This document shows, in pieces, positions 2,149 to 63,390 of a DNA stretch of 64,000 nucleotides (position 1 is the stretch's first letter; every line of letters starts with the position of its first letter). Both the position numbers and the translations under genes were made by a program. The DNA is from Candidatus Marinacidobacterales bacterium (GTDB taxonomy: Bacteria > Acidobacteriota > Vicinamibacteria > Marinacidobacterales > SMYC01): NCBI GenBank assembly GCA_965224085.1, contig CBDCYI010000005.1, positions 2,016,001-2,080,000 of the forward strand, written 5' to 3'. A model generated the notes under the pieces. It saw only the letters and a program-made list of their open reading frames with translations, made no database searches and had not been told where the DNA came from.

Positions 2149-3939
2149 TTGTCTGTCCGCCGATTGTCCTCCCCAGCCAGGAGGGCAGTGGCTCGCGAGC
2201 GCGAGGTGGCCCATTTGTCGAGTTTCCCAAGCGCGGGTTTCACGGTGGCGGTGGCGCTTCTCGCGCCGTCGCCGGCCGGCGCGACTGAGCACCCGGCCGC
2301 GCTTCTGGCCATCGTCGAAGAGTTGCGAGCGCTCCGCGTGCCGGACGAGATCGACGGCGTCCCCGACTACTCGGCCGCGGCGGTGGATCGCCAGAAGCGC
2401 GCTTTGAGAACGCTCGCTCAGCGATTCGACCGACTCGCCCCGGAGGGCTGGACACGGCACGACCGGGTGGACTATCTGCTCCTGCGCTCCGAGCTGGACC
2501 GTCTGGAGTACGTGCTCTACGTGGAGCGTCCGACGTCGCGGAACCCGAATTTCTACCTGTCATCGATCTCTTCGGCGGGAATGCTGAGCGGCGCCGCGCT
2601 GAGCCGGCTCGGACGGCTGGTCAGTCAGCCCCCGCCGTTCGATCCTGGAAGAACCGAGCGCATCCTCGAGCAGATGCGTTCGGTGCCGCCCCTGCTCACC
2701 GCCGCTCGGGCGAACCTCACCGAGGCCGACGCCCCGCGGGCCGAGTGGGCGCTCGAAACGCTGAAAGGCACCCTCGCAGGTAGCCGGCGGTTCGCCCAAG
2801 CCCTCGCACCGCATGTTCCGAAAGAGCTAAGAGGGGAGATCTCTGTCGCGGCCGAGCGCATGGGTGAAGCGTTCGACGGGTACGAGAGGTGGCTTCGCGA
2901 CAACCTGGACCAAATGGGAGAGCCGCGGCCGGCGGGCCGGAAACTCTATGACTGGATCCTGCGAAACGTTTGGCTTCTTCCCTACGACGCGGAGGACATC
3001 CTCCGGATGGGCGAGCAGGAGCTAGCGAGGCTCCAGGCGTTTACCGCGTTCGAAGAGAAGCGCAACGAGGGGCAGCCGAAGCTCGTCGCGGCAGTGACAA
3101 CCCGCGAGTACGCGACCAGAACGGAGCAAGAGGCAAGGCGCATCCGGGCGTTTCTGAAGGAAAAGGACGCCATCACGATTCCGTCACTGGTAGGTCCCTA
3201 CCGTCGTACCGTCATGCCGGACTACCTCCAAGCCTTTGCGCTGTGGAACGCCCTCAGTGGCTATCGCACCGGCGACGGCGGTGCCGTCAAGTATGCCGTG
3301 CCCGAAACGCACCCTTTCCAGAGCACCTACTGGGAAGCGATCATGCGCACCGACCCCGCCACGAACATCTTCCACGACGGCATTCCGGGTCATCACTTTC
3401 AAGGCCTGCTGGCGGCGGAGAATCCGTGTCCGGTGCGTCGCGGGCACAACGAGCGCTTCAAGAGCGAAGGGTGGGCCACCTACTGGGAAGAGGCCGCGGT
3501 GCAGCTCGGCTACTACGACGACCGGCCCAGGAGTCGCGAGCTGATCTACAGCTATCTCCGCCTGCGTGCGTTGCGCGTCATCGTGGACGTGAAGATGGCG
3601 CTGGGGGAGATGACGAAGGAGGAGGCGGTGGCGACGTTGATGTCGACGCCGATGGATCGGCGCATCGCGCGGGAGGAAGTCGACGATTTCTTCGCCGCCC
3701 CGACTGGCGGCATCGTCTACCTGATCGGCAAGCTTCAGATCGAATCCCTGCTTTCTAAACGCCGGCGACAGCTCGGCGACGACTTCCGTCTGCGCACGCT
3801 CCACGATGAGCTCATGACCGCCGGCTGGGTGCCTCTCGCGCTGACGGAATGGGAGATGACGGGAGAGTCGCGCGCGGTCCAGATCCTGTTCGAAGACCGT
3901 CGACCGCTACCGCGTTCGCAAAGTGGAGAGGGCTTCTGA
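2149..3939 (+). CDS. DUF885 family protein 1 (true start probably GTG 2188 or 2206)
   Basis: HDGIPGHHFQ, SEGWATYWEE, YLIGKLQI, FRLRTLHDELMTAGWVPL motifs; N-terminal hydrophobic stretch. Confidence 0.8.
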   Translation: MSVRRLSSPARRAVAREREVAHLSSFPSAGFTVAVALLAPSPAGATEHPAALLAIVEELRALRVPDEIDGVPDYSAAAVDRQKRALRTLAQRFDRLAPEGWTRHDRVDYLLLRSELDRLEYVLYVERPTSRNPNFYLSSISSAGMLSGAALSRLGRLVSQPPPFDPGRTERILEQMRSVPPLLTAARANLTEADAPRAEWALETLKGTLAGSRRFAQALAPHVPKELRGEISVAAERMGEAFDGYERWLRDNLDQMGEPRPAGRKLYDWILRNVWLLPYDAEDILRMGEQELARLQAFTAFEEKRNEGQPKLVAAVTTREYATRTEQEARRIRAFLKEKDAITIPSLVGPYRRTVMPDYLQAFALWNALSGYRTGDGGAVKYAVPETHPFQSTYWEAIMRTDPATNIFHDGIPGHHFQGLLAAENPCPVRRGHNERFKSEGWATYWEEAAVQLGYYDDRPRSRELIYSYLRLRALRVIVDVKMALGEMTKEEAVATLMSTPMDRRIAREEVDDFFAAPTGGIVYLIGKLQIESLLSKRRRQLGDDFRLRTLHDELMTAGWVPLALTEWEMTGESRAVQILFEDRRPLPRSQSGEGF

Positions 3940-3953: not shown

Positions 3954-5717
3954 ATGATGAGGAACCTGAGATCGTTCGCAAGCCTAGGCATGCTCGTGCT
4001 CCCTGCAGTGTGGCTGGCAATGACGGAGGCGCGCGCCCAGGAGAGCCAACCGGTCCGCCACGCATCCCCGGAGCTCATCCAGCTCGCCGAAGAGTTTCGC
4101 GCCTTCCGCAGCCCGTTGTTTCGGCCGCGAACCTGGACTCCTACCCATCGGGTGGCTGGCGTGCCGGACTACGCGACGGTGGTGCGAGAGCAGCGAGAAG
4201 GACTGACGCGATTTCAAGAGCGACTGCGGGCCCTCGACCACCGCAGCTGGCCGGTGCACGACCGCGTCGACTACCTGGTGCTTCGCTCGGAGATGGACGA
4301 CGTTTTCTTCGAGCAGCACGTGCTGCGCGAGGTCGAGACCAATCCCAGCTACTACGTCGAGCAGGCCATCAACGGGGTCGCGCGGGAGATGGGTGACGTC
4401 GTTGCTTACAGTACGCAGAAGGCGGAAGCGATCATCGCCGCCTTCGAGCGGACCGGTCCCATCCTCGAGCAGACCGCCGGCAATATCGTGCTGGCCGAAA
4501 CCGCACCCGCGTTCGGCCGGATGGGCATGCGTCACGTGAAGAACATTCGAGCGCAATATGCCGCGGGCGTTCAACTTCTCGAGCCCCACTTCCCCGCGGG
4601 GCGTCGCGCGAGGCTGAGCTCGGCGGCCGAGCAAGCCGCGATCGAGCTCGAGAAGTACGGCACGTGGATCGAAGCGAACCTTCCGCAGATGAAAGGCCAG
4701 GCGCACGTCGGCCGGAAGAACATGGAGTGGTACTTCGAGCGGGTGAACTTCTCGCCCTGGAACGTCGAGGAGCTCCTGTTTCTCGGTGAGATGGAAAAGA
4801 ACCGCTTCCTCATGTCCATCGAGGTCGAAGAGACCGTAAACCAGGGGCTCAAAGAGCTCACGATGCCGACCACCGACGAGATGATCGAGTGGTTCCGGCT
4901 CACGTATCTGCAGACGAAGTACTGGCTGAAGGACACGGATCTCATCAGCTTCCATCCCTACATCGGGGAGTCGTACCTTCAAGCAGGAGCCTGGCAGGAG
5001 CCTTTCGGCCGCCTCGGCAACCGACCGGGGCTCATCGGTTTTCCCACCGAGCCGAAGCCGGAGCCCACCAAGCGGCTGTTCGTGGTCCCTGAAGGCCACT
5101 GGTTCACCGAAACGTACTGGGAGCGCACGATGCGGCTCGATCCGATCACCGACTACCAGCACTCCGACTGGCCGGGTCACTACTTCGAGGCCGCAGTGAC
5201 CAAGCGAAACCCTTGTCCCGTTCGGGCCGTTCACAAGGACACCGGCTTCTCGCAGGGCTGGGCGCACTACTGGGAGGAGCTGTTCCTGGACATGGGCTAT
5301 CCCTACTTGCGGGGACCGCGGACGCGTGAGCTCACGTACAACTTCCTGTTGTTGCGGGCGGTGCGGATCCCGCTCGACATCTATTTGTCCACCGGCGAGC
5401 ACTCGGTGGACGAGGCGGTTCAGTATCAGGTCGACCGCGTTCCCACGATGGAAGAGCACATCTCCCGGGCGGAGGTGGATATGTACGTGCGCTGGCCCTA
5501 TCAGGCTACGAGCTACATCGTGGGGAAGAAACAGATCGAGCAGATGCTTGCGGAGACGATCGTGAAGGGAGACTACAGCGTGAACTGGCGTGAGTTCCAC
5601 GATGCCATGCTCCAGTACGGACAGATCCCGCTGGCTCTGGTCCGATGGGAGCTGACAGGGAACTCCGATCAGGTCGAGGAGTTCTGGAAGGATCCGGATC
5701 GGCCGTCCACCGAATAG
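3954..5717 (+). CDS. DUF885 family protein 2, secreted
   Basis: RBS AGGAGG; signal peptide ending ARA; HSDWPGHYFE, SQGWAHYWEE, FHDAMLQYGQIPL. Confidence 0.8.
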   Translation: MMRNLRSFASLGMLVLPAVWLAMTEARAQESQPVRHASPELIQLAEEFRAFRSPLFRPRTWTPTHRVAGVPDYATVVREQREGLTRFQERLRALDHRSWPVHDRVDYLVLRSEMDDVFFEQHVLREVETNPSYYVEQAINGVAREMGDVVAYSTQKAEAIIAAFERTGPILEQTAGNIVLAETAPAFGRMGMRHVKNIRAQYAAGVQLLEPHFPAGRRARLSSAAEQAAIELEKYGTWIEANLPQMKGQAHVGRKNMEWYFERVNFSPWNVEELLFLGEMEKNRFLMSIEVEETVNQGLKELTMPTTDEMIEWFRLTYLQTKYWLKDTDLISFHPYIGESYLQAGAWQEPFGRLGNRPGLIGFPTEPKPEPTKRLFVVPEGHWFTETYWERTMRLDPITDYQHSDWPGHYFEAAVTKRNPCPVRAVHKDTGFSQGWAHYWEELFLDMGYPYLRGPRTRELTYNFLLLRAVRIPLDIYLSTGEHSVDEAVQYQVDRVPTMEEHISRAEVDMYVRWPYQATSYIVGKKQIEQMLAETIVKGDYSVNWREFHDAMLQYGQIPLALVRWELTGNSDQVEEFWKDPDRPSTE

Positions 5718-5750: not shown

Positions 5751-7091
5751 GTGACAAATAACAACGAAGCGTCAAGCAACGTCCGATGGCGCATCATCGC
5801 CCTTCTGGTGGGCTTCAGCCTGGTGAGCTACATCCTCCGGATGAATATCTCCATCGCCGCCCAGTTCATGATGCCGGAGCTCGACATCACCCAGATACAG
5901 ATGGGGCAGATCTTCAGCGCGTTTCTGCTCGGCTACGCGCTGTTTCAGATCCCGCTCGGTGTCCTCGGAGACCGTCTGGGCTCCGGAATGCTGGTGACTC
6001 TCGGCGTCGTGTGGGCGGTGCTGACGGTGATCTCGGGGCTCCTGCCCGGCGTTGTCTTCGGGACCGGGACGGCCGCTTTCGTTCTGCTCGTTGTCGTGCG
6101 ATTCGTGCTGGGTGTCACCATCGCTGGCGTCTACCCCATCTCGGCGCTCACCGTGGCGAAGTGGCAGCCCGTGACGCAAAGGGCTTTTTCGTACTCGTTC
6201 ATCGTGGCCGGGGTCTTCATTGGCTCGGCGGTCACGCCGCCGATCGTGGCCTGGCTCATGGTGACGCTCGGCTGGAGAGAATCTTTCTATCTCGTGTCCG
6301 TTTTCGGCGTTGCAGCCGCTCTCACCTGGAAGTTCTACGGTGCCAACCATCCACGGGAGCATCCGGACGTCAGCCCCGGCGAGCTCGCGCTCATCACCGA
6401 GGGGCGGGAGCCCGCGGTGGGACCTCCTCCCGTGGGAGCGGTGTGGTGGACACTTCGCAACCCCTCGGTTCTCTTCCTGAGCGCCAGCTATTTCCTCGCC
6501 GGCTACGTGCTCTACACCTTCATTTTCTGGTTCTTCACGTATCTGGTGGAAGAGCGCCAGTTCACCCTCCTCGAGGGCGGCGTCTACGCGAGCTTGCCGT
6601 TCATCGCGGCGGGCATTCTGTCACCCGTTGGTGGTGCCATCTGCGACTGGTCGACGATGCGCTTCGGTCAGCGGTGGGGCCGACGACTCACCGCCTTCGC
6701 AGGACCGATTCTGGCCGGCGCACTGCTTTTCTGGGGAGCGCGAACCGAGAACGTGATTCTGGCCATCTGCGCGCTGGCGCTGAGCTTCGGTTTTCAAGAG
6801 TTCGCCGAAGCGGCCTATTGGTCGACCACCATGGATATCAGCGGCCGGATGACCGGCGCCGCGACGGGAATCCTGAACACGGCCAACAATCTCGGGGGCG
6901 TGGTCTCCACGGCGTTGATGCCGGTTCTGGTCCAGAAATGGGGGTGGGTTCCGGCCCTGGACAGTTGCAGCCTGCTGGCTGTTGTCTCGGCGGTGCTCTG
7001 GCTCGGCGTCCGTCCGGATCAGCCGATCGAAGTGCGGCAAGCGAACAGCGCGCAGGAGGTCGATGCCAGCTCGGCGGCTTCGCTTCCTTGA
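5751..7091 (+). CDS. MFS transporter, anion:cation symporter (glucarate/galactonate-like) family
   Basis: RWRII..SYILRMNISIA, YALFQIPLG, about 12 hydrophobic segments, GILNTANNLGG. Confidence 0.85.
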   Translation: MTNNNEASSNVRWRIIALLVGFSLVSYILRMNISIAAQFMMPELDITQIQMGQIFSAFLLGYALFQIPLGVLGDRLGSGMLVTLGVVWAVLTVISGLLPGVVFGTGTAAFVLLVVVRFVLGVTIAGVYPISALTVAKWQPVTQRAFSYSFIVAGVFIGSAVTPPIVAWLMVTLGWRESFYLVSVFGVAAALTWKFYGANHPREHPDVSPGELALITEGREPAVGPPPVGAVWWTLRNPSVLFLSASYFLAGYVLYTFIFWFFTYLVEERQFTLLEGGVYASLPFIAAGILSPVGGAICDWSTMRFGQRWGRRLTAFAGPILAGALLFWGARTENVILAICALALSFGFQEFAEAAYWSTTMDISGRMTGAATGILNTANNLGGVVSTALMPVLVQKWGWVPALDSCSLLAVVSAVLWLGVRPDQPIEVRQANSAQEVDASSAASLP

Positions 7092-7108
7092 GCCGGACGG
7101 AAACCACT

Positions 7109-7612
7109 ATGGAAAAAGAATACTTCGAAGACTACACGGTGGGCGAGACGTTCGTCAGCCCGGCCCGCACGGTGACCGAATCGGACACCAACGCTTTCGC
7201 GATGCTGACCGGAGACTGGCATCCTTTGCACACCGACGTGACCTACGCGGAGAGCTCGGTGTTCGGCGAGCGCATCGCGCACGGGATGCTCACGTTGATC
7301 CTCGGCTCCACACTGGTCCTACGCCTCGGACCCCACGTTTACCTGCCGAAGAGCTTCATCGCTTTTTATGGCATCGACCGGGTGCGTTTCACGGCCCCGG
7401 TAAAGATCGGGGACACCATCCACGCCGTGAACCGCGTCAAAGATCTCGCTCCCAAGGACGAGGAGCGAGGAATCCTCCACTACGACGGCACGGTCCAGAA
7501 CCAGCGCGATGAAACGGTTCTCGTCTGGGAGGTCCGCATGCTGGTGGGCTGTCGCCCCGGGCAAACCGGGAGGGAGGAACAGGCCGCTGTCGAAGTGGAT
7601 TCTCGTTCGTGA
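7109..7612 (+). CDS. MaoC-family (hotdog fold) dehydratase
   Basis: C-terminal part of ORF 5786..7612 from ATG 7109: YFEDYTVGE, FAMLTGDWHPLH, IAHGML, RFTAPVKIGDT. Confidence 0.88.
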   Translation: MEKEYFEDYTVGETFVSPARTVTESDTNAFAMLTGDWHPLHTDVTYAESSVFGERIAHGMLTLILGSTLVLRLGPHVYLPKSFIAFYGIDRVRFTAPVKIGDTIHAVNRVKDLAPKDEERGILHYDGTVQNQRDETVLVWEVRMLVGCRPGQTGREEQAAVEVDSRS

Positions 7613-9248: not shown

Positions 9249-9262
9249 GGCAGGAGGTCAAG

Positions 9263-11135: not shown

Positions 11136-11159
11136 ATGATACAAAAAAGGAGGAACGTA

Positions 11160-12881: not shown

Positions 12882-12895
12882 CACTACATTGGATG

Positions 12896-12924
12896 GCGGG
12901 GTCTCTGACTCGAGGGGCCCCGCC
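12896..12924 (+). other. Intergenic stem-loop
   Basis: ggcggggtctct-N6-aggggccccgcc, no U-tract. Confidence 0.4.
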
Positions 12925-12940
12925 TCGAAAAGGAGGGGGC

Positions 12941-14694: not shown

Positions 14695-14718
14695 AGACTT
14701 CATGCAATGGTGGACGTG

Positions 14719-16606: not shown

Positions 16607-16739
16607 TCCGTACCAAATGAGAGTTGTTCATTCGTGCCTTTGTTTTACTCGCCAGTGAACCGGGGATCGCTTCCTCGGTTTTGTCTATTTCTCGCCGGAC
16701 GCTGATCGAGTGGGCTCGGCGGCAAGGAGGATCCAAGCT

Positions 16740-44967: not shown

Positions 44968-45046
44968 CCTTACCGTTACCAACACCCACAACCAAGCTGG
45001 GTCAATCGCAGGCCCCCATTCTCCGGATCCCACCCGTGCCGGTAAG

Positions 45047-50194: not shown

Positions 50195-50328
50195 CTCGTT
50201 GCTCGAGAGGATGATTGCCAACCGGGTTCTTGTTGGCATCGAGATTGCGATACACCAGGTCTACGATCATCCAGAGTCTGCGTGACTCGAGGAGGACCGG
50301 GCCTCGCAAGACAAGAAAGGAGGCAGTC

Positions 50329-56864: not shown

Positions 56865-56868
56865 CGCT

Positions 56869-58494
56869 CTACCGCCCCTCTGTCGGAAGCCCGCTCGAGG
56901 GTTCAACGCTCTCATCACTTCCGGGATTTCGATGCGCCGTCACGATGACGCGGTTGGAGCGGACCAGGTATCGCCTCGCTGCGCGTTCGATATCCTTCAC
57001 CGAAACTCGCTCCCGCGCTTCAACGTGAGATTGCATCGTGTTCCAGCTGTGCATCACCTCGAACCGTCCCAATTCATAGGCGAGGTCAGCGCGACTCGAG
57101 CGGATCTGATTCCAGTCGAGCCGTAGCTCCCTGCGCGCCTGCTCGAGCGTCTTCGGGTCGACTTGACCCTGACGCAACTCTTGCACCACCTCCAATATGG
57201 CGCTCTCGATTGCCCCGAGGTCCTCGTCCCCGCGCCCCATGCCGACGAGGTCGATCGCGCTCGGCGAGCCGGTGCGCGACGCGGATACCCGAAAATCGAC
57301 GCCGGTTGCAAGCTCTCGTTTGTCGCTGAGCTTCCGGTTCAGCATGCGTCCGACCAGCGCTGCGATCGTGTCGAAAACCGGCCGATCGGGATGGCCGACG
57401 CCGGGGATGCGGTAGCGAACGATGACCCTCGGATCCACGGGCTCCAGCCAGTCGAGCCGGATGGCACCCCCAGGAACCACTTCCGCCTCGAGATCCATCC
57501 AGGCGGGTGGCTCCGCTCCCCTCGGGATCCGGCCGAAATATTGCTCGGCGAGAGGTTCGACCTCGCTCCGGGTAATGTCCCCCACGAGGACGAGGCTCGC
57601 GTTGTTGGGTACGAAGTAATCATCGTACATGCGCAGCATGCTGGCCCGACTGTAGAACGCGAAATCCCTCAAATGGCCGCCGGAGCGCCGGAACATCGGA
57701 TGTACGACTCCGGTAACTCCGTTCATCACCTCATAGAACCTTCCCCTCGGATCGGCGGCCCGTTGGCGTCCTCCCAGGATCTGCTCGAGCACGGTAAACC
57801 GCTGGGCCTCCCATCCCCTCAGGACCGCGTTGGCCATGCGATCCGCCTCCAGCCGAAACAGAAGCTCGATGTTCTCCCTGGGCATGTCGAGGTCGATCTC
57901 GAGCGCCTCGTGCCCGGTCGTGGCCGGCACCGGATCGGTATGTCTGCTGACAGCCCCGTACCGACGATGCCAGTTGTATTCGGCCCAGAATTCCCTGTAT
58001 TGCGCATCCTCGTCCTCCAGCTCGTACAATCGCTGCCGCAACTGCTCGATTTCGGGGGTCGTCGGCCAGTCGAGGTCGCCGTGAAAGACGTCGCGCTGCC
58101 GGAGGCGGTTTCTCTCACGGTTACGGGCGGCCAGGAGCTTCTGCTCGGTCTCGTAGATCTCGCGCAAGAGGGATTTCTCAGCCTCGAAGTTGTTCGTGCC
58201 AACGGTCGTGGTCCCCTGGTGCACCATGTGCTCGAGGAAGTGGGTCGAGCCATGCTCGCCAATACGCTCCTGCAACGAGCCCAGGCGGTACCACAGACTC
58301 GCTGCGACGCGAGGGACCCGGTGATCCTCCACGACTAACACCCGGAATCCGTTGTCGAGCACGAGCTCTTGAACGTCGACCAGGGGAAAAGACGAAGACG
58401 GCTCGACGGAGGACTGGCTGTCGCTCGATCGCACGGAGGCTAGCCCTATGAGGAGCGTGGTGGCGACGGCACTCGTCAGGAGGAAGGGTCGCAT
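56869..58494 (-). CDS. M16-fold HxxEH subunit (alpha 5)
   Basis: GSTHFLEHMVHQGT; signal peptide. Confidence 0.85.
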   Translation of the reverse strand: MRPFLLTSAVATTLLIGLASVRSSDSQSSVEPSSSFPLVDVQELVLDNGFRVLVVEDHRVPRVAASLWYRLGSLQERIGEHGSTHFLEHMVHQGTTTVGTNNFEAEKSLLREIYETEQKLLAARNRERNRLRQRDVFHGDLDWPTTPEIEQLRQRLYELEDEDAQYREFWAEYNWHRRYGAVSRHTDPVPATTGHEALEIDLDMPRENIELLFRLEADRMANAVLRGWEAQRFTVLEQILGGRQRAADPRGRFYEVMNGVTGVVHPMFRRSGGHLRDFAFYSRASMLRMYDDYFVPNNASLVLVGDITRSEVEPLAEQYFGRIPRGAEPPAWMDLEAEVVPGGAIRLDWLEPVDPRVIVRYRIPGVGHPDRPVFDTIAALVGRMLNRKLSDKRELATGVDFRVSASRTGSPSAIDLVGMGRGDEDLGAIESAILEVVQELRQGQVDPKTLEQARRELRLDWNQIRSSRADLAYELGRFEVMHSWNTMQSHVEARERVSVKDIERAARRYLVRSNRVIVTAHRNPGSDESVEPSSGLPTEGR

Positions 58495-58589: not shown

Positions 58590-60320
58590 TCAGAATCCGT
58601 TGGCATGACCGAGGCGTCGCGGATCGGTCACCCCATGAAGTTTGCCGGCATCATCGCGCCAGACAAGTTGGATCGAGCCGGTATGCCAGTTGTACGGTCC
58701 AAGCTCCTCGATCTGGATCCCGCGCGCCGAAAGCTCCTTGCGCAGGGCATCGGGAATGCGGGACTCGATGCGAAGATACCCGACGTTGCCAAAGTCTCGG
58801 TCCACTCCCCTGTCACGGTACGCCCAGAAGCGCGGCGCGTCGATGGCCTCTTTCGGCGGCATACCGAAGTCGAGGATGTTGATCAGAACCTCGGTAACCG
58901 GCTGCGACGGCAATCCCGGTGAGCCGATCGCCAGCCAGGGCTTGCCGTCCTTCGCGATCATCGTCGCGGTCACGTGCGTCGAAAAACGTCGGCCGGGTCC
59001 GCTCGTGCGCTGCCATCTTCCGCTGCCGGTAGATCTCACGCCGTCGACGAACACACCCGGCATACCACCATGCCCGGTATGAAGATAAGTAATCCAGTTG
59101 CCCTCGGCGTCGACGATGACGTTGTGATTGCTGTCGTCGCCGTAGGGGTCGACCTTACTCCAGGGTCCGGCTGGTCGCAGCGAAGCATAATCATCGGTAG
59201 CTCTCGCCGGCGCGAGGTCCGCTTTCGGCATGCTGGTCCGCACGAACTCGGCTCCCATCTTGCCGTACTCCTTCGAAAGCCATAGCGCCGACGGGATGTG
59301 GAAGCTGCGCGGATCCCCCATGGCATAGCGAATCTCGTTCTCCACCCGGCCGAGCGCGCGCACCATGATCTCCAGCGTTTCTGCCGACTCCGTGTAATGT
59401 CCCGCTTTCTTCAGGTCAAAGTTCTCCAGGATGTTCAGGTTGTAGCCAAGATTCAGACCCCCGGCCACCGGAGGCGGCTCACTGATGATCTCGTGGCCCC
59501 GGTACGTAAAACGCACCGGCTCCTGCCAGAGCACCTCGTAAGCGCTCAGATCTTCCAGGCTCACGCGCCCGCCACGCTTGTTCGCTTCCTTCACGAACTT
59601 CTGGGCCCACGCTCCCTTGTAGAGGTAATCCGAACCCTCCGAGGCTACCTTGCGGAGAGTTTCTGCGAGCGCCGGCATCTTCCAGCGGTGCCCCACCGGC
59701 ACCAGGTGCCCTTCGGGCATGTAGAACTCCCGGGCCTCTTTGTTCTCCTTGATCAAATCCCTGTTTGACCAATTGGAATAGTTGTTGCCATACATGAAGG
59801 AGGTGACGACGAACCCTTCCTCGGCGGTGGCGATGGCAGGCTCGACATAACTGGCCCACTCCTGCGTGCCGAAGCGCTTCCACAGTTGCTCCAGCGCGAG
59901 CACCTTGCCCGCAATCGAAACCTTCATCGGGTCGCCGTGCTCGCCGCGCTCGGCGAGAGGCTTTGCGCCATAAGCATTGAAGGCGTAATACTTCCCGGTT
60001 GCCGCCTCATAGTAGAGCCCGGTCATCGCGCCAAAAAGAGAGACTTGATGGTAGTCCACGACGTTTTGGAGGAACGTCGCGGTGATGGCCGCATCCACGG
60101 CATTACCACCTTCACGGAGGACCTCGAGCGCCGTCTCCGTGACGATGTGGAGTTGCGTGCTCACCATCACCTTGTCGCCTATCGCTTCGGGTTTAGGGCC
60201 CTGATTGAGCAGCGGATCTCTGGGATCGGTGGGTCCCGGCTCAATCTGGCCCATCGCTGCCGGCACCATGCCCGTGAAGATGAGAGTCAAGACTAGGGCC
60301 GGTAATGTGACCGAACGCAT
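58590..60320 (-). CDS. GGT-fold Ntn hydrolase 5 (divergent, secreted)
   Basis: RBS GAGGAGG; DSNHNVIVDAEGN, GSPGLPSQP, TDPRR. Confidence 0.85.
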   Translation of the reverse strand: MRSVTLPALVLTLIFTGMVPAAMGQIEPGPTDPRDPLLNQGPKPEAIGDKVMVSTQLHIVTETALEVLREGGNAVDAAITATFLQNVVDYHQVSLFGAMTGLYYEAATGKYYAFNAYGAKPLAERGEHGDPMKVSIAGKVLALEQLWKRFGTQEWASYVEPAIATAEEGFVVTSFMYGNNYSNWSNRDLIKENKEAREFYMPEGHLVPVGHRWKMPALAETLRKVASEGSDYLYKGAWAQKFVKEANKRGGRVSLEDLSAYEVLWQEPVRFTYRGHEIISEPPPVAGGLNLGYNLNILENFDLKKAGHYTESAETLEIMVRALGRVENEIRYAMGDPRSFHIPSALWLSKEYGKMGAEFVRTSMPKADLAPARATDDYASLRPAGPWSKVDPYGDDSNHNVIVDAEGNWITYLHTGHGGMPGVFVDGVRSTGSGRWQRTSGPGRRFSTHVTATMIAKDGKPWLAIGSPGLPSQPVTEVLINILDFGMPPKEAIDAPRFWAYRDRGVDRDFGNVGYLRIESRIPDALRKELSARGIQIEELGPYNWHTGSIQLVWRDDAGKLHGVTDPRRLGHANGF

Positions 60321-60457
60321 AGCTACCTCCTCTCGGGGAATGCTTTGCTCCCGAGGCTCTTGGAAAAGTTTTTCCAGAATGAAGATCGATCTCAAACGAG
60401 CGCCCTTAGAAAAATTTCTGTCGGGCTTTCTCCTGGTGGTTAGGATGTCTCATTGGA

Positions 60458-60549: not shown

Positions 60550-63390
60550 CTAAAAACGGAGGCGCACCCCAATTTGCAGGGTGCGCGGCAGCTCGATGAC
60601 GGCCGGTTTCCCAAAATTGGAGAGGTCGAATCTCAAGGTCTGGACAGCCGTGACGGTGCTTACATTGAGCACGTTGAAGACGTCGGCCGTAAGATCCAAG
60701 TTCAAACGGCTGCCAAGTACAATCGCCTTTTCGGCACGGAACGATAGCAGGTGCAGAAAGTCTTGTCGGTTCGTTCCTCTCGGCTGACCGGCGAACTCGA
60801 TGAAGCTCTCTACCACGATGGCCGGGTTATCCTCCGCGAACACACGAATCGTGGGGGAGCCCAGGACGTCCGATGGGAAACCCGAGTCGGGCTTGATGGG
60901 GAAGCCGGAGATCCCCTGGTAGAACGCGCTCACCATGATTTGGTAAGGAGCCTGGTAGCTGCCGACGAGCTTGATCTGGACGGGAGCGTCCAAGTCGAGC
61001 GGACCGTCAATATTGATCAAGGTGTTCGGGTTGTCGTAGATTTGGTGTCCTCCCCAGGTGGCGCCGAAACTGTTGCCGATATTGCCGTCGGACCGGCCGA
61101 GGTTGAGCGAGCCAGTAAACTGCCAGCCGTCGCTCATCCGCTTGCGAGCGGCGATCTCGAGTCCTTTGTAGTTCCGCTCGAGAGGCACCGGATCGGTGGG
61201 GGTGGTGAGGTAGCGGATTCGTTGCGCCCCCACGAATTCCGGTTTCAGAGCGAAGGCCGTCATAGACTGGCCATCGATCGGGTTGATGACGTCGAGCGGA
61301 TCATAGGCAGAGAAGGGCCTGCCTATGTCTACGGTCTCCAGGATGTCCCGGTCGCGTTTGAAAATCCCGCTCACCGAGATGGCAAAGTTGTTTCCGATCT
61401 GCTGCTCGACTCCCACGTGGAGCGCGTCCGTGTAAGGTGCCTTCAAATTGGGATCGAACTGATCCAGATTTGTCGAGAAATTTCGGCGCAGGGTCCCCTG
61501 TTCGCCGTCCTGGAAGAAGAGATCGCCGTTAAGGTCATTCCAATCGTACTCCTGAAAGCTGGCCGCGTTCTGGAGGGCGAGCGACATGTGCTGATTCATG
61601 AGCGCCACGTAATATCGGCCAAAATTCAGCTTAAAGGAGGTCCGCTGGTCACCCTTGAGATCCCACACCAGCCCCAGCCGAGGGGCGACGGTGAACCAAT
61701 CGATCTGATTGCGTTGCTCGGCGAAGGTCACCTCGGGAAACCACCGACCCCCACCGCCCGTCTGCTCGGGGTGGAACCCCTCACTCCATTCGAACCGGGC
61801 CCCCAGATTCAGGGTGACCCGATCTTTCAGCGTCCATGCATCCTGGACGAACCCCGCCTGGCGGTTGACGTGCCGGCCCTGCAGCACCGGGAGCTGGTAA
61901 AGCCGAATCCGGTGTGCCGCTCCGTTCCTGTACCGGTGAAGCATTTCATCGGGGAGTTCGAATCGCCTCCAAAGCGGTGCAAATTCGTACTCGAAACCCG
62001 CCTGGAGATTGTGTTCGCCTCCCAAGAAGTCCCCGCTGAAGTAAGAGAAGTTGGCCTTGATATTTCTTTTCTCTCGGTTTTTGTAGTTGTTGACCGTGCG
62101 TGTCCATCCGCAGCAATCTAGCCCAGTGCCAATGTCCCGACCGCCCGATATCTCGGAATTGACAAAACCGCCCCCGCTCTGCTGCAAGGTCTGGACAAAC
62201 TTTATGTCCATATAGGTGTTTTCATTCAGCACCTGTGTCAGGGACACAAAAATGATCTTCTGATACCGGTCAGCGTCACGCCACGTCTCGGGCGAATCGT
62301 TGGTTCGAAAGCTGGCGCCGGTCGGAAACTCCGTACGGTCGCGCTGGGTGTAGGAGCCCATGAGGCGCGTATTCTCCGTTAGCTGCGTGGTGACCTTGAC
62401 GAAGCCTTGAGTGTCGGAAACGTCTATATCTCTGGCTGTGAAGTCCGGACGCGTGAAGTCGATGTCAAACCTGCGGATATTCCCGAAATACCAGACCTTA
62501 TCCTGCAGGATCGGACCGCCCAGGGTGAAGCCGTAATTCACGTTCTTGTTGATCGTCGTTCCCTGTTCGAGTCCCTGGTCGATGAGCTCGTCGGTGAGGT
62601 TGTCCCCTTGTAGCCCATCATTCTGTAAGAAAACGTTGACATTACCTTCGTGTTGGTTTCCACCCGACTTGGTCACGAAGTTGAACACCGCGCCGCTCGC
62701 CTGACCGAACTCGGCAGAAATGCCTCCGCTAGTGATCTGAACCTCGTCGAGAATGTCGTATGGGAGGTCGGTGAACGTGTAGCCCACCGTGTTATCGTTA
62801 ATGTTTGCGCCGTCGACGTACGAGACGTTGTCTCGAACCGAACCTCCGTGCACGGTTTGCGCCGGAGCAAAGGCGTATTGGCTATCGATGACACCCGGAG
62901 CGGTGACAAGGAGCTCGTCAAAGCGGTTTGCCGAGGGGAGATTCTCCACAATGGCACTGTCGACGATGCGCTGCGTCTTGGTGTTCCTCACATCGATGAT
63001 TGGCGATTCGCCAGTTACCGTGACGGTCTCCTGAACGGCACTAATGTTCAAGGTAACATCAATCGCTAGCGATGCTCCTGCCTCCAGAACGATCTCCTCG
63101 TGGGAAGTCGTTTGGAATCCTGGCAGCTCGATTTTTACCCTATAGACGCCAGGGGGAAGACTTGGAACACGATAAGTCCCTTCATTGCCGGTGACTCGGA
63201 CCTCCGTGTCCTTGATGAGCTGCGGACTGGATACGGTTACCGTCGCACCGGGGATACGGCTACCGCTCGCGTCGACGACCCTGCCGTAGAGGGTTCCGGT
63301 GAGTTCCTGCGCAAGGACACTACCTGCTCCCATCAGCAATAGGATGGACAGGACAAAACTAACCGAATTCATCACGAATCTATTGGACAT
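60550..63390 (-). CDS. TonB-dependent receptor 4 (Oar-like)
   Basis: RBS AAGGAG; signal peptide; FAPAQTVHGGSVRDN, VTKSGGN, FVQDAW, APRLG, terminal F. Confidence 0.9.
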   Translation of the reverse strand: MSNRFVMNSVSFVLSILLLMGAGSVLAQELTGTLYGRVVDASGSRIPGATVTVSSPQLIKDTEVRVTGNEGTYRVPSLPPGVYRVKIELPGFQTTSHEEIVLEAGASLAIDVTLNISAVQETVTVTGESPIIDVRNTKTQRIVDSAIVENLPSANRFDELLVTAPGVIDSQYAFAPAQTVHGGSVRDNVSYVDGANINDNTVGYTFTDLPYDILDEVQITSGGISAEFGQASGAVFNFVTKSGGNQHEGNVNVFLQNDGLQGDNLTDELIDQGLEQGTTINKNVNYGFTLGGPILQDKVWYFGNIRRFDIDFTRPDFTARDIDVSDTQGFVKVTTQLTENTRLMGSYTQRDRTEFPTGASFRTNDSPETWRDADRYQKIIFVSLTQVLNENTYMDIKFVQTLQQSGGGFVNSEISGGRDIGTGLDCCGWTRTVNNYKNREKRNIKANFSYFSGDFLGGEHNLQAGFEYEFAPLWRRFELPDEMLHRYRNGAAHRIRLYQLPVLQGRHVNRQAGFVQDAWTLKDRVTLNLGARFEWSEGFHPEQTGGGGRWFPEVTFAEQRNQIDWFTVAPRLGLVWDLKGDQRTSFKLNFGRYYVALMNQHMSLALQNAASFQEYDWNDLNGDLFFQDGEQGTLRRNFSTNLDQFDPNLKAPYTDALHVGVEQQIGNNFAISVSGIFKRDRDILETVDIGRPFSAYDPLDVINPIDGQSMTAFALKPEFVGAQRIRYLTTPTDPVPLERNYKGLEIAARKRMSDGWQFTGSLNLGRSDGNIGNSFGATWGGHQIYDNPNTLINIDGPLDLDAPVQIKLVGSYQAPYQIMVSAFYQGISGFPIKPDSGFPSDVLGSPTIRVFAEDNPAIVVESFIEFAGQPRGTNRQDFLHLLSFRAEKAIVLGSRLNLDLTADVFNVLNVSTVTAVQTLRFDLSNFGKPAVIELPRTLQIGVRLRF

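What the first reader, a model, noticed from the sequence alone, without database searches (positions are those of the whole stretch)
2149..63390. Candidate undescribed TonB-coupled import and periplasmic amide/peptide-processing system built from re-wired GGT, M16 and DUF885 folds
Seen: 4 paralogous TBDRs sharing a plug motif (YxFxPAQTVHGxSxRDN) are co-oriented with 5 GGT-fold, 8 M16-fold and 4 DUF885 genes. Nearby are 2 M24 peptidases and an M19 relic, and almost all of these proteins have signal peptides or lipoboxes. Each expanded family departs from the canonical catalytic motif in every paralog. Established: TBDR plus M16 protease pairs (FusA/FusC, YddB/PqqL) import and cleave proteins. 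Inference: this is a utilisation-locus-like system for an unusual peptide or amide substrate class (for example acylated, isopeptide-linked or non-proteinogenic), with modules diversified by duplication. The substrate cannot be determined from the sequence.
Basis: partly seen in the sequence, partly recalled or inferred. Interest (0 to 1): 0.9.

Follow-up and report, generated by a model that had tools for sequence, protein, structure and literature searches.

The report
TonB receptor operons with rewired hydrolases
This Acidobacteriota region holds four outer-membrane receptor operons, each paired with secreted amide- or peptide-cutting enzymes from uncharacterised subfamilies, which most likely scavenge peptide-like nutrients and resemble known receptor-plus-protease import systems rather than a wholly new machine.

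Summary
The gene content is real: 4 TBDRs (one broken), 5 GGT-fold genes, 8 M16 genes, 4 DUF885 genes and 2 M24 genes. All three quoted motifs are present at the stated frequency.

Two "rewired" claims hold:
- All 5 GGT-fold proteins have Ser where GGTs have the Thr nucleophile, lack the conserved PLSSMxP and Gly-Gly motifs, and score below NCBI's GGT cut-off.
- All 4 DUF885 proteins lack the Glu of HExxPGH.

The M16 claim fails. Five M16 genes keep HFLEH, and the other three are lipoprotein partner subunits, as is usual for M16B heterodimers.

The 61 kb is not one system. It holds four TBDR-led operons of two types, separated by an IS1634 element and unrelated genes:
- DUF885/GGTx3/TBDR, with M24 nearby.
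- TBDR-(GGT)-M16a-M16b.

One operon is decaying. Its recent four-gene duplicate elsewhere in the genome is intact.

Linkage recurs outside this genome: 17 of 39 loci with this GGT subfamily hold a same-subfamily TBDR, DUF885 or M16a. Among 79 canonical GGT loci the figures are 3, 0 and 2. The subfamily is clade-restricted (2 of 400 sampled genomes of the phylum).

Best reading: TonB-dependent peptide/amide scavenging loci, a new variant of protease-associated import systems. Substrate and transport direction remain unknown.

The parts
2149..3939 (+). DUF885_1 (motif HDGIPGHH; Glu of HExxPGH replaced by Asp)
   Evidence: Pfam PF05960 5.6e-60. Motif seen. PDB relatives read HEAxPGHH.
3954..5717 (+). 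DUF885_2 (HSDWPGHY; Glu lost)
   Evidence: Pfam. Alignment.
5751..7091 (+). MFS transporter of the anion:cation symporter type. Candidate inner-membrane uptake step for an organic-acid product.
   Evidence: PF07690 5.8e-53. TIGR00893 subfamily 186 bits, below its 395-bit cut-off.
7100..7612 (+). MaoC-like (R)-hydratase domain protein
   Evidence: PF01575 1.7e-24. PaaZ C-terminal/RipB-like matches, all below cut-offs. Start codon not determined.
7626..9248 (+). DUF885_3 (HAVIPGHR; Glu lost; lipobox-like ASVAC)
   Evidence: AF2 model pLDDT 93.7. Best fold matches are the DUF885 entries 3u24, 3o0y and 3iuk. Orthologs at 74-79% identity in family f3 keep HAVIPGHRFD.
9188..10963 (+). GGT-fold Ntn-hydrolase paralog 1 (SNHNVIVD). 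An ATG at about 9245 is a possible start.
   Evidence: PF01019 2.1e-71. Motif at 10433-10456. PDB alignment.
11136..12881 (+). GGT-fold paralog 2 (SNHNVIVD)
12893..14662 (+). GGT-fold paralog 3 (SNHNVIVD)
   Evidence: TIGR00066 232.6 bits against a cut-off of 357.85.
14707..16332 (+). DUF885_4 (HATIPGHQ; Glu lost)
16710..19613 (+). TBDR_1 (CarboxypepD_reg N-terminal domain, plug, barrel). Ends the DUF885/GGT operon.
   Evidence: Plug motif at 17262-17312.
19714..19788 (-). Possible C-terminal remnant of an M19 dipeptidase gene
   Evidence: PF01244 14.6 bits, E 0.067, profile positions 292-316. Weak.
19875..21704 (-). IS1634-family transposase. It interrupts the conserved neighbourhood between TBDR_1 and the M24 pair.
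   Evidence: NF033559 310 bits against a cut-off of 100.
25198..26610 (-). M24_1 (divergent M24 peptidase)
   Evidence: PF00557 4.4e-12. A same-subfamily M24 lies in 4 of 39 related GGT loci, e.g. two copies in L135.
26620..28095 (-). M24_2 (Xaa-Pro aminopeptidase-like, with signal peptide)
   Evidence: PF00557 6.6e-33 plus AMP_N. PRK10879 114.8 bits, below cut-off.
35093..37945 (+). TBDR_2, first gene of the M16 operon. A TTGACA-N17-TATAAA box lies at about 34928-34955, and the leader is conserved with that of TBDR_4.
38555..40210 (+). M16_1, alpha-type (HFLEH; PVPATT; about 75-residue insertion)
40207..41706 (+). M16_2, beta-type partner (lipobox SLAGC). Its start overlaps the M16_1 stop by 4 bases.
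41684..43339 (+). M16_3, alpha-type (HFLEH; PVPATT)
43381..44967 (+). M16_4, alpha-type (HFLEH; PVPATT)
44939..46756 (+). FG-GAP/UnbV_ASPIC protein, conserved last gene of this operon in G003 and G012
   Evidence: Same order in L038 and L160.
47246..49859 (+). TBDR_3, broken. A 238-bp deletion between 48202 and 48205 relative to the paralog at C5:698761-701640 shifts the frame.
   Evidence: Two ORFs. Frames. blastn against the paralog. RNA-library contigs carry extra letters at the same place.
50215..52068 (+). GGT-fold paralog 4 (SNHNVIVD)
52152..53762 (+). M16_5, alpha-type, with an in-frame TGA at 53451-53453. Homology continues in frame after it.
   Evidence: the genome search reports "1 TGA".
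53778..55277 (+). M16_6, beta-type partner (GSVAC lipobox-like)
55329..56918 (-). M16_7, beta-type partner (ATMSC lipobox-like, by eye)
56869..58494 (-). M16_8, alpha-type (HFLEH; PVPATT)
58590..60395 (-). GGT-fold paralog 5 (SNHNVIVD; Ser422 at the nucleophile position)
   Evidence: TIGR00066 240.1 bits against a cut-off of 357.85. AF2: low-confidence linker 391-419, then a strand from 422.
60550..63483 (-). TBDR_4, first gene of the minus-strand TBDR-GGT-M16a-M16b operon
   Evidence: No PDB sequence match at E<=0.01.

Best explanation
The region holds four separate TonB-dependent-receptor operons of two related types, not a single machine.

**Type 1 (2149-19613, with the M24 pair beyond an IS insertion).** Four Glu-less DUF885 proteins, an MFS transporter and a MaoC protein, three tandem GGT-fold Ntn hydrolases, and a TBDR.

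**Type 2 (35093-46756; 47246-55277; 63483-55329).** A TBDR, then (in two of the three) one GGT-fold hydrolase, then M16B alpha (HFLEH) and lipoprotein beta subunits.

**Proposed mechanism (inferred).**
1. The TBDR takes up an oligopeptide or peptide-like amide compound.
2. The M16 alpha/beta clamshell cuts it in the periplasm.
3. The GGT-fold enzymes autoprocess to expose an N-terminal Ser. They act as amidohydrolases on an amide that is not a standard gamma-glutamyl bond.
4. M24 enzymes trim Xaa-Pro ends.
5. The Glu-less DUF885 proteins bind the substrate, or process it by a non-canonical route.
6. In type 1, the MFS transporter moves an acidic product inward.

**Shown:** gene families, motifs, operon structure, conservation of linkage, and en bloc duplication.

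**Inferred:** direction of transport, catalysis, and substrate.

Functionally this is a clade-restricted variant of protease-associated import systems (FusA/FusC, YddB/PqqL).
For: **Families and motifs**
- Family assignments. Motifs.
- Tight spacing and co-orientation within each operon. M16_1 and M16_2 overlap by 4 bases, and GGT_2 and GGT_3 are 11 bases apart.
- N-terminal export signals in 28 of 28 proteins inspected, by heuristic.
- M16 alpha-type genes keep HFLEH in all 7 copies of the genome that were aligned. Their closest solved relatives are M16B peptidases: 4nnz at 2.2e-35, and the active subunit 3amj_C at 6.6e-26.

**GGT fold**
- Ser aligns with the nucleophile of B. licheniformis GGT chain 4y23. 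It is invariant in alignment A1 of 15 sequences.
- 99 of 120 database relatives match S-[ND]-H by regex, none has Thr, and 21 did not match the regex.
- The neighbouring Thr of the Thr-Thr dyad position is invariant (T440).
- In the AF2 model a low-confidence linker (391-419) is followed by a strand starting at 422, as expected for an Ntn precursor.

**Linkage within the genome**
- A third, intact TBDR-GGT-M16a-M16b module lies at C5:693459-701640.
- It is 85-97% identical to module 47246-55277 in all four proteins. The minus-strand module is 58-67% identical. The four genes therefore duplicate as a unit.

**Linkage outside the genome**
- TBDR-DUF885-GGTx3 occurs in family f3 genomes (L031, L032, L034, L035), in a named MAG contig (L051), and in metagenome contigs (L135, L136, L139).
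- TBDR-GGT-GGT-M16a occurs in L142.
- Overall, 17 of 39 loci have a same-subfamily partner: TBDR 15, DUF885 11, M16a 6.
- Among 79 canonical GGT loci the figures are TBDR 3, DUF885 0 and M16a 2.

**Phyletic overlap among 40 relatives** (tallied by eye from the tables, using higher cut-offs than the tools' own)
- This GGT subfamily is in 13 genomes and the PVPATT-type M16a in 12, with 11 shared. The DUF885_3 type is in 11.

**Other**
- A shared promoter-like box and leader lie upstream of TBDR_2 and TBDR_4.
- RNA-library contigs identical to the window cover TBDR_4 and GGT_5 in two runs. DNA carry-over was not excluded.
- Precedent for TBDR plus periplasmic M16 import: PMC6793856 (abstract and section 6 read).
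Against: - 22 of 39 loci with this GGT subfamily show no partner in the DNA fetched. Some of those contigs are short, but L040-L043, L046-L048, L132, L133 and L141 have about 10 kb on each side.
- In family f3 the M16 pair lies more than 100 kb from the GGT cluster. It sits only loosely near other, weaker-scoring TBDRs, in 2 of the 3 loci examined.
- The genomes that share the synteny fall into about two clades plus a few contigs, so the counts overstate independence.
- One module in the window is decaying, so that copy at least is dispensable.
- No TonB, ExbB or ExbD gene and no regulator was seen among the 38 ORFs scanned.
- The TBDRs have no detectable sequence relation to solved TBDTs. That search covered all PDB chains, which include FusA and YddB according to PMC5095587 (search listing only) and PMC6793856.
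- Thr-to-Ser mutants of canonical GGTs are impaired in processing and activity (passages of PMC8062742). Activity of the natural Ser form is therefore not assured.
- Loss of the HExxH Glu argues that the DUF885 proteins may not be hydrolases at all.
- Nothing here shows the direction of transport or any substrate.
Confidence: 0.5

Rival explanations
1. Export rather than import. The TBDRs work like Myxococcus Oar, which has the same N-terminal PF13620 domain and is required for secretion of the protease PopC. They would move the co-encoded hydrolases (GGT-fold, M16, DUF885) across the outer membrane, where these act as extracellular or surface enzymes.
For: - All four TBDRs have CarboxypepD_reg (PF13620) + Plug + barrel.
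- PMC6434023 (abstract start and two passages seen) states that Oar's N-terminal extension is a PF13620 domain and that Oar is required for PopC secretion.
- The beta-type M16 subunits and DUF885_3 are lipoprotein-like. Such proteins could be surface-exposed.
Against: - Oar and PopC are not reported there as an operon pair.
- SusC-type importers carry the same N-terminal domain family. That is recalled, not tested here.
- The MFS transporter in operon type 1 fits uptake of a product.
- No sequence comparison with Oar was possible with the tools used.
Confidence: 0.13
2. No common function. The span is a mosaic of locally amplified gene families in a genome rich in paralogs and pseudogenes. TBDR adjacency reflects duplication history and the sheer abundance of TBDRs and secreted peptidases in Acidobacteriota.
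For: - The genome has 28 ORFs matching the TBDR model, 25 the GGT model and 19 the DUF885 model.
- Unrelated genes and an IS element lie inside the span.
- Many singleton copies exist: 22 of 39 loci.
- Broken copies exist.
- Many split M19 matches suggest widespread gene decay.
Against: - The same gene order recurs across two families at 57-79% protein identity and in metagenome contigs.
- Partner frequency is far above that of canonical GGT loci.
- All four genes of a module were duplicated together.
- Genes within operons overlap or nearly abut.
Confidence: 0.15
3. Processing of an imported peptidic or lipopeptide metallophore, or of an iron-carrying protein, for metal acquisition. The TBDR imports it. 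The Ntn hydrolase deacylates it, or the M16 cleaves it, to release the metal.
For: - Fus and YddB/PqqL are iron-linked TBDT+M16 systems (PMC6793856 abstract).
- Periplasmic Ntn acylases remodel lipopeptide siderophores in loci that also encode TonB receptors (PMC13592322, passages).
- MaoC and an organic-anion MFS transporter would suit a released acyl chain.
Against: - Those acylases belong to the penicillin-acylase branch, not the GGT fold.
- No siderophore biosynthesis, Fur-type or ABC iron-uptake genes were found among the 38 ORFs scanned.
- No riboswitch or other Rfam match was found in the window.
- Multiple M24 genes and a possible M19 remnant fit peptide catabolism better.
Confidence: 0.08
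4. Ordinary gamma-glutamyltransferases acting on glutathione or gamma-glutamyl peptides, as the public annotations say.
For: - PF01019 matches at 1e-69 to 1e-78.
- Sources name relatives "gamma-glutamyltranspeptidase/glutathione hydrolase".
Against: - Scores of 240.1 and 232.6 bits fall below the TIGR00066 cut-off of 357.85.
- The nucleophile is Ser, not Thr.
- The PLSSMxP stretch aligns with non-conserved residues, and the second Gly of GSPGG is never Gly in the 116 of 120 relatives that matched the regex.
- The Arg equivalent to EcGGT R114 aligns with a variable residue (by eye).
Confidence: 0.04

Closest known systems
Protease-associated import systems (Pectobacterium FusA/FusC; E. coli YddB/PqqL), PMC6793856
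   Same: A TonB-dependent outer-membrane transporter is encoded next to a periplasmic M16 zinc protease. Distribution is sporadic and lifestyle-linked. Other proteases are sometimes associated.
   Different: - Those systems are described in Proteobacteria, with FusA-type barrels and single-chain M16 proteases of about 900 residues (FusC/PqqL).
- Here the TBDRs carry a CarboxypepD_reg N-terminal domain and match no solved TBDT by sequence.
- Here the M16 is a two-gene alpha/beta pair with an insertion of about 75 residues.
- GGT-fold and DUF885 partners are not part of the described systems, judging from the parts of the paper read. Its supplements were not seen.
Bacteroidota SusC/SusD polysaccharide and peptide utilisation loci (recalled)
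   Same: A TBDR with the same N-terminal domain family leads an operon of secreted or lipoprotein hydrolases. There are multiple paralogous loci per genome. A lipoprotein gene lies directly next to the TBDR (DUF885 in the f3 genomes and in L051).
   Different: No SusD/RagB family was found among the 38 ORFs scanned. The enzymes are amidases and peptidases, not glycoside hydrolases. A binding role for DUF885 is only conjecture.
Myxococcus xanthus Oar (TBDT required for PopC secretion), PMC6434023
   Same: PF13620 N-terminal extension + plug + barrel. Functional link to a protease.
   Different: Oar acts in secretion. No sequence comparison was made here, and no GGT, M16 or DUF885 partners are described in the passages seen.
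E. coli / B. licheniformis gamma-glutamyltranspeptidase and class IV cephalosporin acylase (MEROPS T03; PDB 2e0w, 4y23, 2nlz)
   Same: Same fold and two-subunit precursor layout (profile E 2.4e-63, 4e-56 and 2.8e-46). The conserved second Thr position is kept. The nucleophile sits at the start of a strand after a flexible linker.
   Different: Ser replaces the Thr nucleophile. PLSSMxP and the second Gly of the Gly-Gly pair are absent. Scores fall below the TIGR00066 cut-off. Genes occur in tandem triplets within TBDR operons.
Sphingomonas sp. A1 M16B heterodimer (PDB 3amj, active and inactive subunits) and Pseudomonas 4nnz
   Same: HxxEH alpha subunit plus a partner subunit encoded adjacently. 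LEADRMxN block conserved.
   Different: - About 75 extra residues lie between HFLEH and the strand that normally reads NAxT, here PVPATT.
- The canonical E-x6-E stretch aligns with WEAQRFTVLEQ (E-x7-E).
- The beta subunits are lipoproteins and are barely detectable by sequence (only 5hxk at 6.9e-05).
DUF885 structural-genomics proteins (PDB 3u24, 3o0y, 3iuk), function unknown
   Same: Same fold (Foldseek E 4.8e-16 to 4.5e-11, TM 0.64-0.72). The EGW..Y.EE block is kept. The deposited names read "putative lipoprotein".
   Different: Those entries read HEAxPGHH/Y. The window's four copies and their orthologs lack the Glu. Beyond DUF885, the only fold resemblance is a weak one to M32 carboxypeptidase (5giv_C, E 0.51, probability 0.75).

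Membership tests
Gamma-glutamyltransferase (MEROPS T03 / TIGR00066) | GGT fold / PF01019 match over both subunits | tested here: met
   PF01019 at 1e-69 to 1e-78 in 5 of 5. Profile against E. coli GGT chain 2e0w: 2.4e-63.
Gamma-glutamyltransferase (MEROPS T03 / TIGR00066) | N-terminal Thr nucleophile of the small subunit | tested here: not met
   - Ser aligns with that position in 4y23.
- Ser is invariant in 15 of 15 sequences.
- 99 of 120 relatives match S[ND]H, none has Thr, and 21 did not match the regex.
- By regex, 60 of 82 canonical GGT ORFs read T.H and none reads S; the other 22 did not match the regex.
Gamma-glutamyltransferase (MEROPS T03 / TIGR00066) | Conserved gamma-glutamyl-binding and oxyanion residues (Arg of the large subunit, PLSSMxP, Gly-Gly) | tested here: not met
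   Read by eye from the HMMER alignment: PLSSMTP aligns with l-v-l-e-i-t-g, GSPGG aligns with GsPGv, and the Arg aligns with a variable residue. The second Gly is never Gly in the 116 of 120 relatives that matched the regex. The importance of these residues is taken from passages of PMC8062742 and from the abstract start of PMC6769717.
Gamma-glutamyltransferase (MEROPS T03 / TIGR00066) | Score at or above NCBI's curated equivalog cut-off | tested here: not met
   240.1 and 232.6 bits against a cut-off of 357.85, for 2 of the 5 paralogs scanned.
Gamma-glutamyltransferase (MEROPS T03 / TIGR00066) | Autocatalytic cleavage into large and small subunits | not testable with these tools
   The only hint is indirect: AF2 gives a low-confidence linker at 391-419 and a strand from Ser422.
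M16B zinc peptidase heterodimer | HxxEH zinc-binding/catalytic motif in the active subunit | tested here: met
   HFLEH is present in M16_1, M16_3, M16_4, M16_5 and M16_8 and in 2 further genomic copies. It is absent from M16_2, M16_6 and M16_7, as expected for partner subunits.
M16B zinc peptidase heterodimer | Distal Glu zinc ligand (canonical E-x6-E, about 76 residues after HxxEH; recalled) | tested here: inconclusive
   HMMER aligns the 3amj_C stretch KKEIQVIAEER with an invariant RFTVLEQIL block that has no Glu at the last position. Two invariant Glu residues (WEAQRFTVLEQ) lie there with a spacing one residue longer. No coordinates were available to check the geometry.
M16B zinc peptidase heterodimer | Adjacent genes for an active and a non-catalytic subunit | tested here: met
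   Three alpha/beta pairs: 38555/40207, 52152/53778 and 56869/55329. M16_3 and M16_4 are extra alpha-type genes without their own beta partner. Physical association was not tested.
DUF885 (PF05960; Peptidase_MA clan) | Pfam match above the gathering score, and the DUF885 fold | tested here: met
   120-205 bits against a cut-off of 32.4 in 4 of 4. The model matches 3u24, 3o0y and 3iuk.
DUF885 (PF05960; Peptidase_MA clan) | HExxH-type motif with the catalytic Glu (HExxPGH in solved members) | tested here: not met
   - The window copies read H-D, H-S, H-A and H-A.
- Both His residues are invariant in 52 aligned sequences.
- Of 54 full-length representatives, 23 read HE and 31 do not; one of the 31 is probably misaligned.
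DUF885 (PF05960; Peptidase_MA clan) | Downstream Glu block (EGW..Y.EE), a candidate third metal ligand | tested here: met
   Kept in 4 of 4 paralogs, one as QGW. E392, G393, E399 and E400 are nearly invariant in A3.
Protease-associated import system (Fus / YddB-PqqL) | TBDT gene adjacent to an M16 protease gene | tested here: met
   Three operons in the window and one elsewhere in the genome. Also present in G003, G012 and L142.
Protease-associated import system (Fus / YddB-PqqL) | FusA-type transporter and FusC/PqqL-type single-chain M16 | tested here: not met
   TBDR_4 has no PDB sequence match at E<=0.01. M16_8 matches PqqL chains only over about 55 residues around HxxEH (1.5e-09). The proteins here are two chains of about 500 residues each.
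Protease-associated import system (Fus / YddB-PqqL) | Import of a protein substrate, and iron-dependent expression | not testable with these tools
   No experiment was possible. No iron-related genes were seen in the window.
SusC/SusD-type utilisation locus | SusD/RagB-family lipoprotein next to the TBDR | tested here: not met
   No SusD/RagB family was found among the 38 ORFs scanned against Pfam.

The most novel reading that the evidence does not exclude
These operons define a new type of TonB-dependent utilisation locus in host-associated Acidobacteriota.
- A Glu-less, metal-binding DUF885 lipoprotein has become the substrate-capture partner of the receptor, an analogue of SusD built from a dead zincin.
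- A Ser-nucleophile branch of the GGT fold supplies tandem amidohydrolases for amide bonds that ordinary peptidases cannot cut, for example isopeptide, N-acyl or D-/non-proteinogenic linkages in host matrix or natural-product peptides.
- The M16 pairs and M24 enzymes finish the job.
Probability: 0.2. Interest if true: 0.75.

Novelty: new variant of a known kind. Interest (0 to 1): 0.55.

Why it matters
- If the operons work as proposed, they extend receptor-plus-protease import beyond Proteobacteria. They also add two enzyme classes whose chemistry is unknown: a natural Ser-nucleophile branch of the GGT fold, and a large Glu-less branch of DUF885.
- Public annotation calls the first "gamma-glutamyltransferase" and leaves the second nameless. 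Metabolic reconstructions of these bacteria therefore mis-assign several genes per genome (8 copies in this genome).
- RNA libraries labelled as sponge metagenome carry identical sequence, and relatives of the GGT subfamily come largely from Acidobacteriota metagenome bins. The substrates may therefore bear on how such symbionts feed on host or community peptides.
- The loci give a concrete, small set of proteins to express and screen.

Tried and rejected
- **Genome-collection scan with the full-length GGT alignment.** It picked a generic GGT pattern, so 79 of the 80 loci returned were canonical GGTs. I kept them only as a control set.
- **hmmalign of canonical GGTs to my subfamily HMM.** It misaligned the linker region, so I dropped it and used regex counts instead.
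- **Phylum-wide search.** It scored only the top 3 candidates per genome, so "2 of 400" is a lower bound.
- **Rfam scan of the window.** No match.
- **ESM Atlas.** It only returned GGT-domain clusters.
- **k-mer search for a motif shared by all TBDR upstream regions.** It found nothing shared by three or more regions. Only TBDR_2 and TBDR_4 share a box.
- **RNA-library contigs.**
  - M16_7 and M16_8 (55329-58494) had almost no cover, and 53094-55309 had none.
  - Contigs over 47223-49289 carry extra letters at 48202/48205. They may come from the intact paralog (95% nucleotide identity), so they do not show expression of the broken copy.
- **Complex prediction was not used.** The alpha/beta M16 pair is a textbook pair, and no other binding claim is strong enough to justify a job.
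- **AF2 models.** They gave no coordinates, so I could not check the zinc-site geometry of M16a or DUF885.
- **Literature searches.**
  - DUF885: 17 papers hold the term, none in title or abstract.
  - Acidobacteria, TBDR and M16, sponge Acidobacteriota, and a Ser nucleophile in the GGT family: none described these subfamilies.
  - Subscription papers and supplements were not searchable.
- **Genes considered and rejected as operon members.** BNR/sortilin-like (21876-25241), F420 LLM (28219-29118), GWxTD/TPR (29233-31338), and the TPR plus FG-GAP pair (31529-34707). No conserved linkage to the operons was seen. The exception is the FG-GAP gene at 44939-46756.

Full report
**What is there**

The window is G000:C5:2016001-2080000 of a 6.87-Mb, 12-contig genome at about 60% G+C. 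I scanned 38 long ORFs against Pfam. The results were:
- 4 DUF885 genes.
- 5 PF01019 (GGT) genes.
- 8 M16 genes.
- 4 TonB-dependent receptors with a CarboxypepD_reg N-terminal domain, a plug and an OMP_b-brl_4/TonB barrel.
- 2 M24 peptidases.
- An MFS transporter, a MaoC-domain protein, an IS1634 transposase, a BNR/sortilin-like protein, an F420-type LLM oxidoreductase, a GWxTD/TPR protein, a TPR protein and two FG-GAP/UnbV_ASPIC proteins. A biotin carboxylase lies at the left edge. NCBIfam refined several of these.

- SNHNVIVD in 5 of 5 GGT-fold genes.
- PVPATT in 5 M16 genes.
- The plug motif in 4 of 4 TBDRs.

A simple hydropathy and lipobox inspection found an N-terminal hydrophobic segment in all 28 proteins examined. 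Lipobox-like Cys sites occur in DUF885_3, M16_2 and M16_6 and in M16_7 (by eye). This is a heuristic, not a trained predictor.

**Anatomy**

The genes form four TBDR-containing operons, not one block.
- **Operon E (2149-19613, + strand):** DUF885, DUF885, MFS, MaoC, DUF885, GGT, GGT, GGT, DUF885, TBDR_1.
- **Operon D (35093-46756, + strand):** TBDR_2, M16a, M16b, M16a, M16a, FG-GAP/ASPIC.
- **Operon A (47246-55277, + strand):** TBDR_3, GGT, M16a, M16b.
- **Operon B (63483-55329, - strand):** TBDR_4, GGT, M16a, M16b. It converges on operon A.

Spacing within operons is tight. M16_1 and M16_2 overlap by 4 bases, and GGT_2 and GGT_3 are 11 bases apart.

Between E and D lie an IS1634 transposase, a 25-residue possible M19 remnant (E 0.067), the BNR protein, the two M24 genes and unrelated genes.

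Operon A is damaged.
- TBDR_3 lacks 238 bp that its paralog at C5:698761-701640 has. This shifts the frame.
- M16_5 carries an in-frame TGA at 53451-53453, and homology continues after it.

**Catalytic motifs**

*GGT fold.*
- In the profile alignment to B. licheniformis GGT chain 4y23, the subfamily's Ser sits on the nucleophile position. The review PMC8062742 lists 4y23 as the T399A precursor mutant (passages). The following His and the "..VD..GN" block are conserved.
- The Ser (S422 in GGT_5) is invariant in 15 of 15 aligned sequences. So is T440, which lines up with the second Thr of the catalytic dyad.
- Among the best 120 database relatives, 99 match S-[ND]-H and none has Thr. The other 21 did not match my regex.
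- By regex, 60 of 82 canonical GGT ORFs from diverse bacteria read T.H and none reads S.
- The PLSSMxP stretch aligns with unrelated residues. The abstract start of PMC6769717 calls that stretch highly conserved. The second Gly of GSPGG is never Gly in the 116 of 120 relatives that matched the regex.
- Two paralogs score 240.1 and 232.6 bits against TIGR00066, whose cut-off is 357.85.
- The review records that Thr-to-Ser mutants of E. coli and H. pylori GGT are impaired. The B. licheniformis T399S entry is cut off in the passage seen. A natural, conserved Ser form is therefore noteworthy.
- An AF2 model (pLDDT 79.3) shows a low-confidence linker at 391-419, followed by a strand starting at residue 422. 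That is the layout of an Ntn precursor.

*DUF885.*
- The solved relatives 3o0y and 3u24 read HEAxPGHH/Y.
- The four window copies read HDGIPGHH, HSDWPGHY, HAVIPGHR and HATIPGHQ. They keep the EGW..Y.EE block, once as QGW.
- The f3 orthologs keep HAVIPGHRFD, so the Glu loss is old and under selection.
- A full-library search gave 5814 relatives at E<=0.001. Among 54 full-length representatives of the best 150, 23 read HE and 31 do not; one of the 31 is probably misaligned. Both His residues are invariant in a 52-sequence alignment.
- The model of DUF885_3 is confident (pLDDT 93.7). It matches only the three DUF885 structural-genomics entries, then weakly an M32 carboxypeptidase.

*M16.*
M16_1, M16_3, M16_4, M16_5 and M16_8 all carry HFLEH.
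- Their best solved relatives are M16B peptidases, including the active subunit of the Sphingomonas heterodimer.
- PVPATT replaces the strand that reads NAxT in those relatives. An insertion of about 75 residues precedes it.
- The usual E-x6-E stretch aligns with an invariant WEAQRFTVLEQ (E-x7-E). The third zinc ligand is therefore unresolved.
- M16_2, M16_6 and M16_7 lack HxxEH, have lipobox-like signals and follow an alpha-type gene. That is what partner subunits of M16B heterodimers look like.

**Is the linkage more than chance?**

*Within the genome.*
- HMMs built from the window paralogs find 8 copies of this GGT subfamily.
- They find a third, intact TBDR-GGT-M16a-M16b module at C5:693459-701640.
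- They also find a divergent GGT/TBDR pair on C11 and a TBDR-DUF885 pair on C4.
- The intact module is 85-97% identical to operon A in all four proteins, whereas A against B is 58-67%. The four genes were therefore copied as a unit, and one copy is now decaying.

*In 40 relatives.*
- This GGT subfamily occurs in two clades. One is the window's own family (G003, G012, G004). The other is family f3 (genera g15 and g17).
- G003 and G012 share both operon types.
- The f3 genomes and a named MAG contig (L051) have TBDR-DUF885-GGT-GGT-GGT, often with an M24 gene nearby.

*In metagenomes.*
- A scan keyed on SNHNVIVD returned 20 loci.
- Among them were DUF885-GGT-GGT-TBDR with two M24 genes (L135), TBDR-GGT-GGT-M16a (L142), DUF885-GGT (L144) and GGT-M16a (L146).

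*Counts.*
- Counting all 45 fetched loci outside G000, 39 hold a GGT of this subfamily (at least 750 bits). Of those 39, 17 have a same-subfamily partner: TBDR 15, DUF885 11, M16a 6 and M24 4. The other 22 have none.
- In 79 loci around canonical GGTs from many phyla, TBDR occurs in 3, M16a in 2 and DUF885 in 0.

*Caveats.*
- The positive loci come from few lineages, and three contigs (L051, L136, L139) are near-identical.
- Some negative loci are short contigs. Ten negative loci, however, have full flanks.
- In f3 the M16 pair lies elsewhere, next to weaker TBDR matches in 2 of 3 loci.
- In an even sample of the phylum, only 2 of 400 other genomes had the subfamily at E<=1e-120, with the top 3 candidates scored per genome. 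There it was mostly unlinked.

*Phyletic patterns.* I tallied these by eye from the tables, using higher cut-offs than the tools' own. The GGT subfamily is in 13 of 40 relatives and the PVPATT-type M16a in 12 of 40, with 11 shared. The DUF885_3 type is in 11 of 40.

**Other clues**

- The MFS transporter belongs to the anion:cation symporter group, and MaoC resembles (R)-specific enoyl-CoA hydratases. Both matches are below the family cut-offs. They would suit uptake and handling of an acidic or acyl product, but this is weak evidence.
- TBDR_2 and TBDR_4 share a TTGACA-N17-TATA(A/G)A box and a conserved block just before the ribosome-binding site. Their proteins are only 58.8% identical. This hints at common regulation.
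- No Rfam family matches the window.
- Metatranscriptome libraries, some labelled sponge metagenome, hold contigs identical to the window over TBDR_4 and GGT_5. DNA carry-over cannot be excluded.

**Comparison with what is known**

- TBDT plus periplasmic M16 protease is an established kind of system: the protease-associated import systems FusA/FusC and YddB/PqqL. PMC6793856 describes them as widespread in Proteobacteria (abstract and section 6 read; a term search of that paper finds no mention of Acidobacteria or Bacteroidetes).
- The present loci work like that kind but are not members. The TBDRs match no solved TBDT by sequence. The M16 is a two-gene pair. GGT-fold and DUF885 partners are new to the arrangement.
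- The receptor architecture equals that of Myxococcus Oar, which is needed for secretion of a protease (PMC6434023, passages). An outward direction is therefore a live rival.
- No paper in the searchable library has DUF885 in its title or abstract. My searches for these subfamilies in Acidobacteria found nothing. Supplements and subscription journals were not seen.

**Verdict**

- Best reading (confidence about 0.5): clade-restricted TonB-dependent peptide/amide scavenging operons, a new variant of a known kind. They are built around two uncharacterised enzyme subfamilies whose active sites really do differ from their families' norms, plus ordinary-looking M16B pairs.
- Substrate, direction of transport, and whether the DUF885 proteins catalyse anything remain open.

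Noticed in passing
window 47246-49859 and 52152-53762: One of the four operons is decaying. TBDR_3 has a 238-bp deletion between 48202 and 48205 relative to its 95%-identical paralog. M16_5 has an in-frame TGA at 53451-53453. The intact sister module lies at G000:C5:693459-701640.
   Followed up: yes
window 19714-21704 (-): An IS1634-family transposase lies directly beside a 25-residue match to the C-terminal end of peptidase M19 (E 0.067). It is possibly the stump of a dipeptidase gene cut by the insertion. No inverted repeats or target duplication were looked for.
   Followed up: partly
window about 34928-35092, and about 63484-63560 on the minus strand: The upstream regions of TBDR_2 and TBDR_4 share a TTGACA-N17-TATA(A/G)A box and a conserved block of about 45 nt just before the ribosome-binding site. 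The proteins themselves are only about 59% identical. This is a candidate shared regulatory element. There is no Rfam match.
   Followed up: partly
window 31529-34707 (-) and 44939-46756 (+); also G000:C5:443770-451727: FG-GAP/UnbV_ASPIC (CRTAC1-like) proteins are abundant: 25 ORFs match the model genome-wide. One is the conserved last gene of the TBDR_2 operon in G000, G003 and G012. Another is paired with a TPR protein. Their role is unknown.
   Followed up: no
G000, whole genome (e.g. C9:819489-820374, C11:693106-693840, C9:223011-223787): Several M19 peptidase matches are split into adjacent pieces. GGT, DUF885 and M16 fragments also occur (C4:1186878-1189498). This suggests many pseudogenes or assembly indels in this genome.
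   Followed up: no
G000:C9:396046-401926: Three tandem DUF885 genes of a different subfamily keep the Glu (HE[YW]WPGHTYE). A fourth of that type sits next to a TBDR at C4:306538-311605. TBDR-DUF885 pairing is therefore not limited to the Glu-less branch.
   Followed up: partly
window 55329-63600; runs X14, X16, X19, X21: RNA-seq libraries from three studies, some labelled sponge metagenome, contain contigs 95-100% identical to the TBDR_4/GGT_5 region. DNA runs of several coded organisms hold 73-97% of the sampled words of the stretch.
   Followed up: partly
L055 (Ilumatobacteraceae MAG contig), match 3035-4366: A distant GGT-family gene (33% identity) reads S-C-E at the aligned nucleophile position, in an alignment that was unreliable for distant sequences. 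It may be another non-Thr branch of the family.
   Followed up: no
window 28219-29118 (-): A TIGR03619-family F420-dependent LLM oxidoreductase (233.7 bits, above its 166.9-bit cut-off) sits in an Acidobacteriota genome. F420 biosynthesis genes were not looked for.
   Followed up: no
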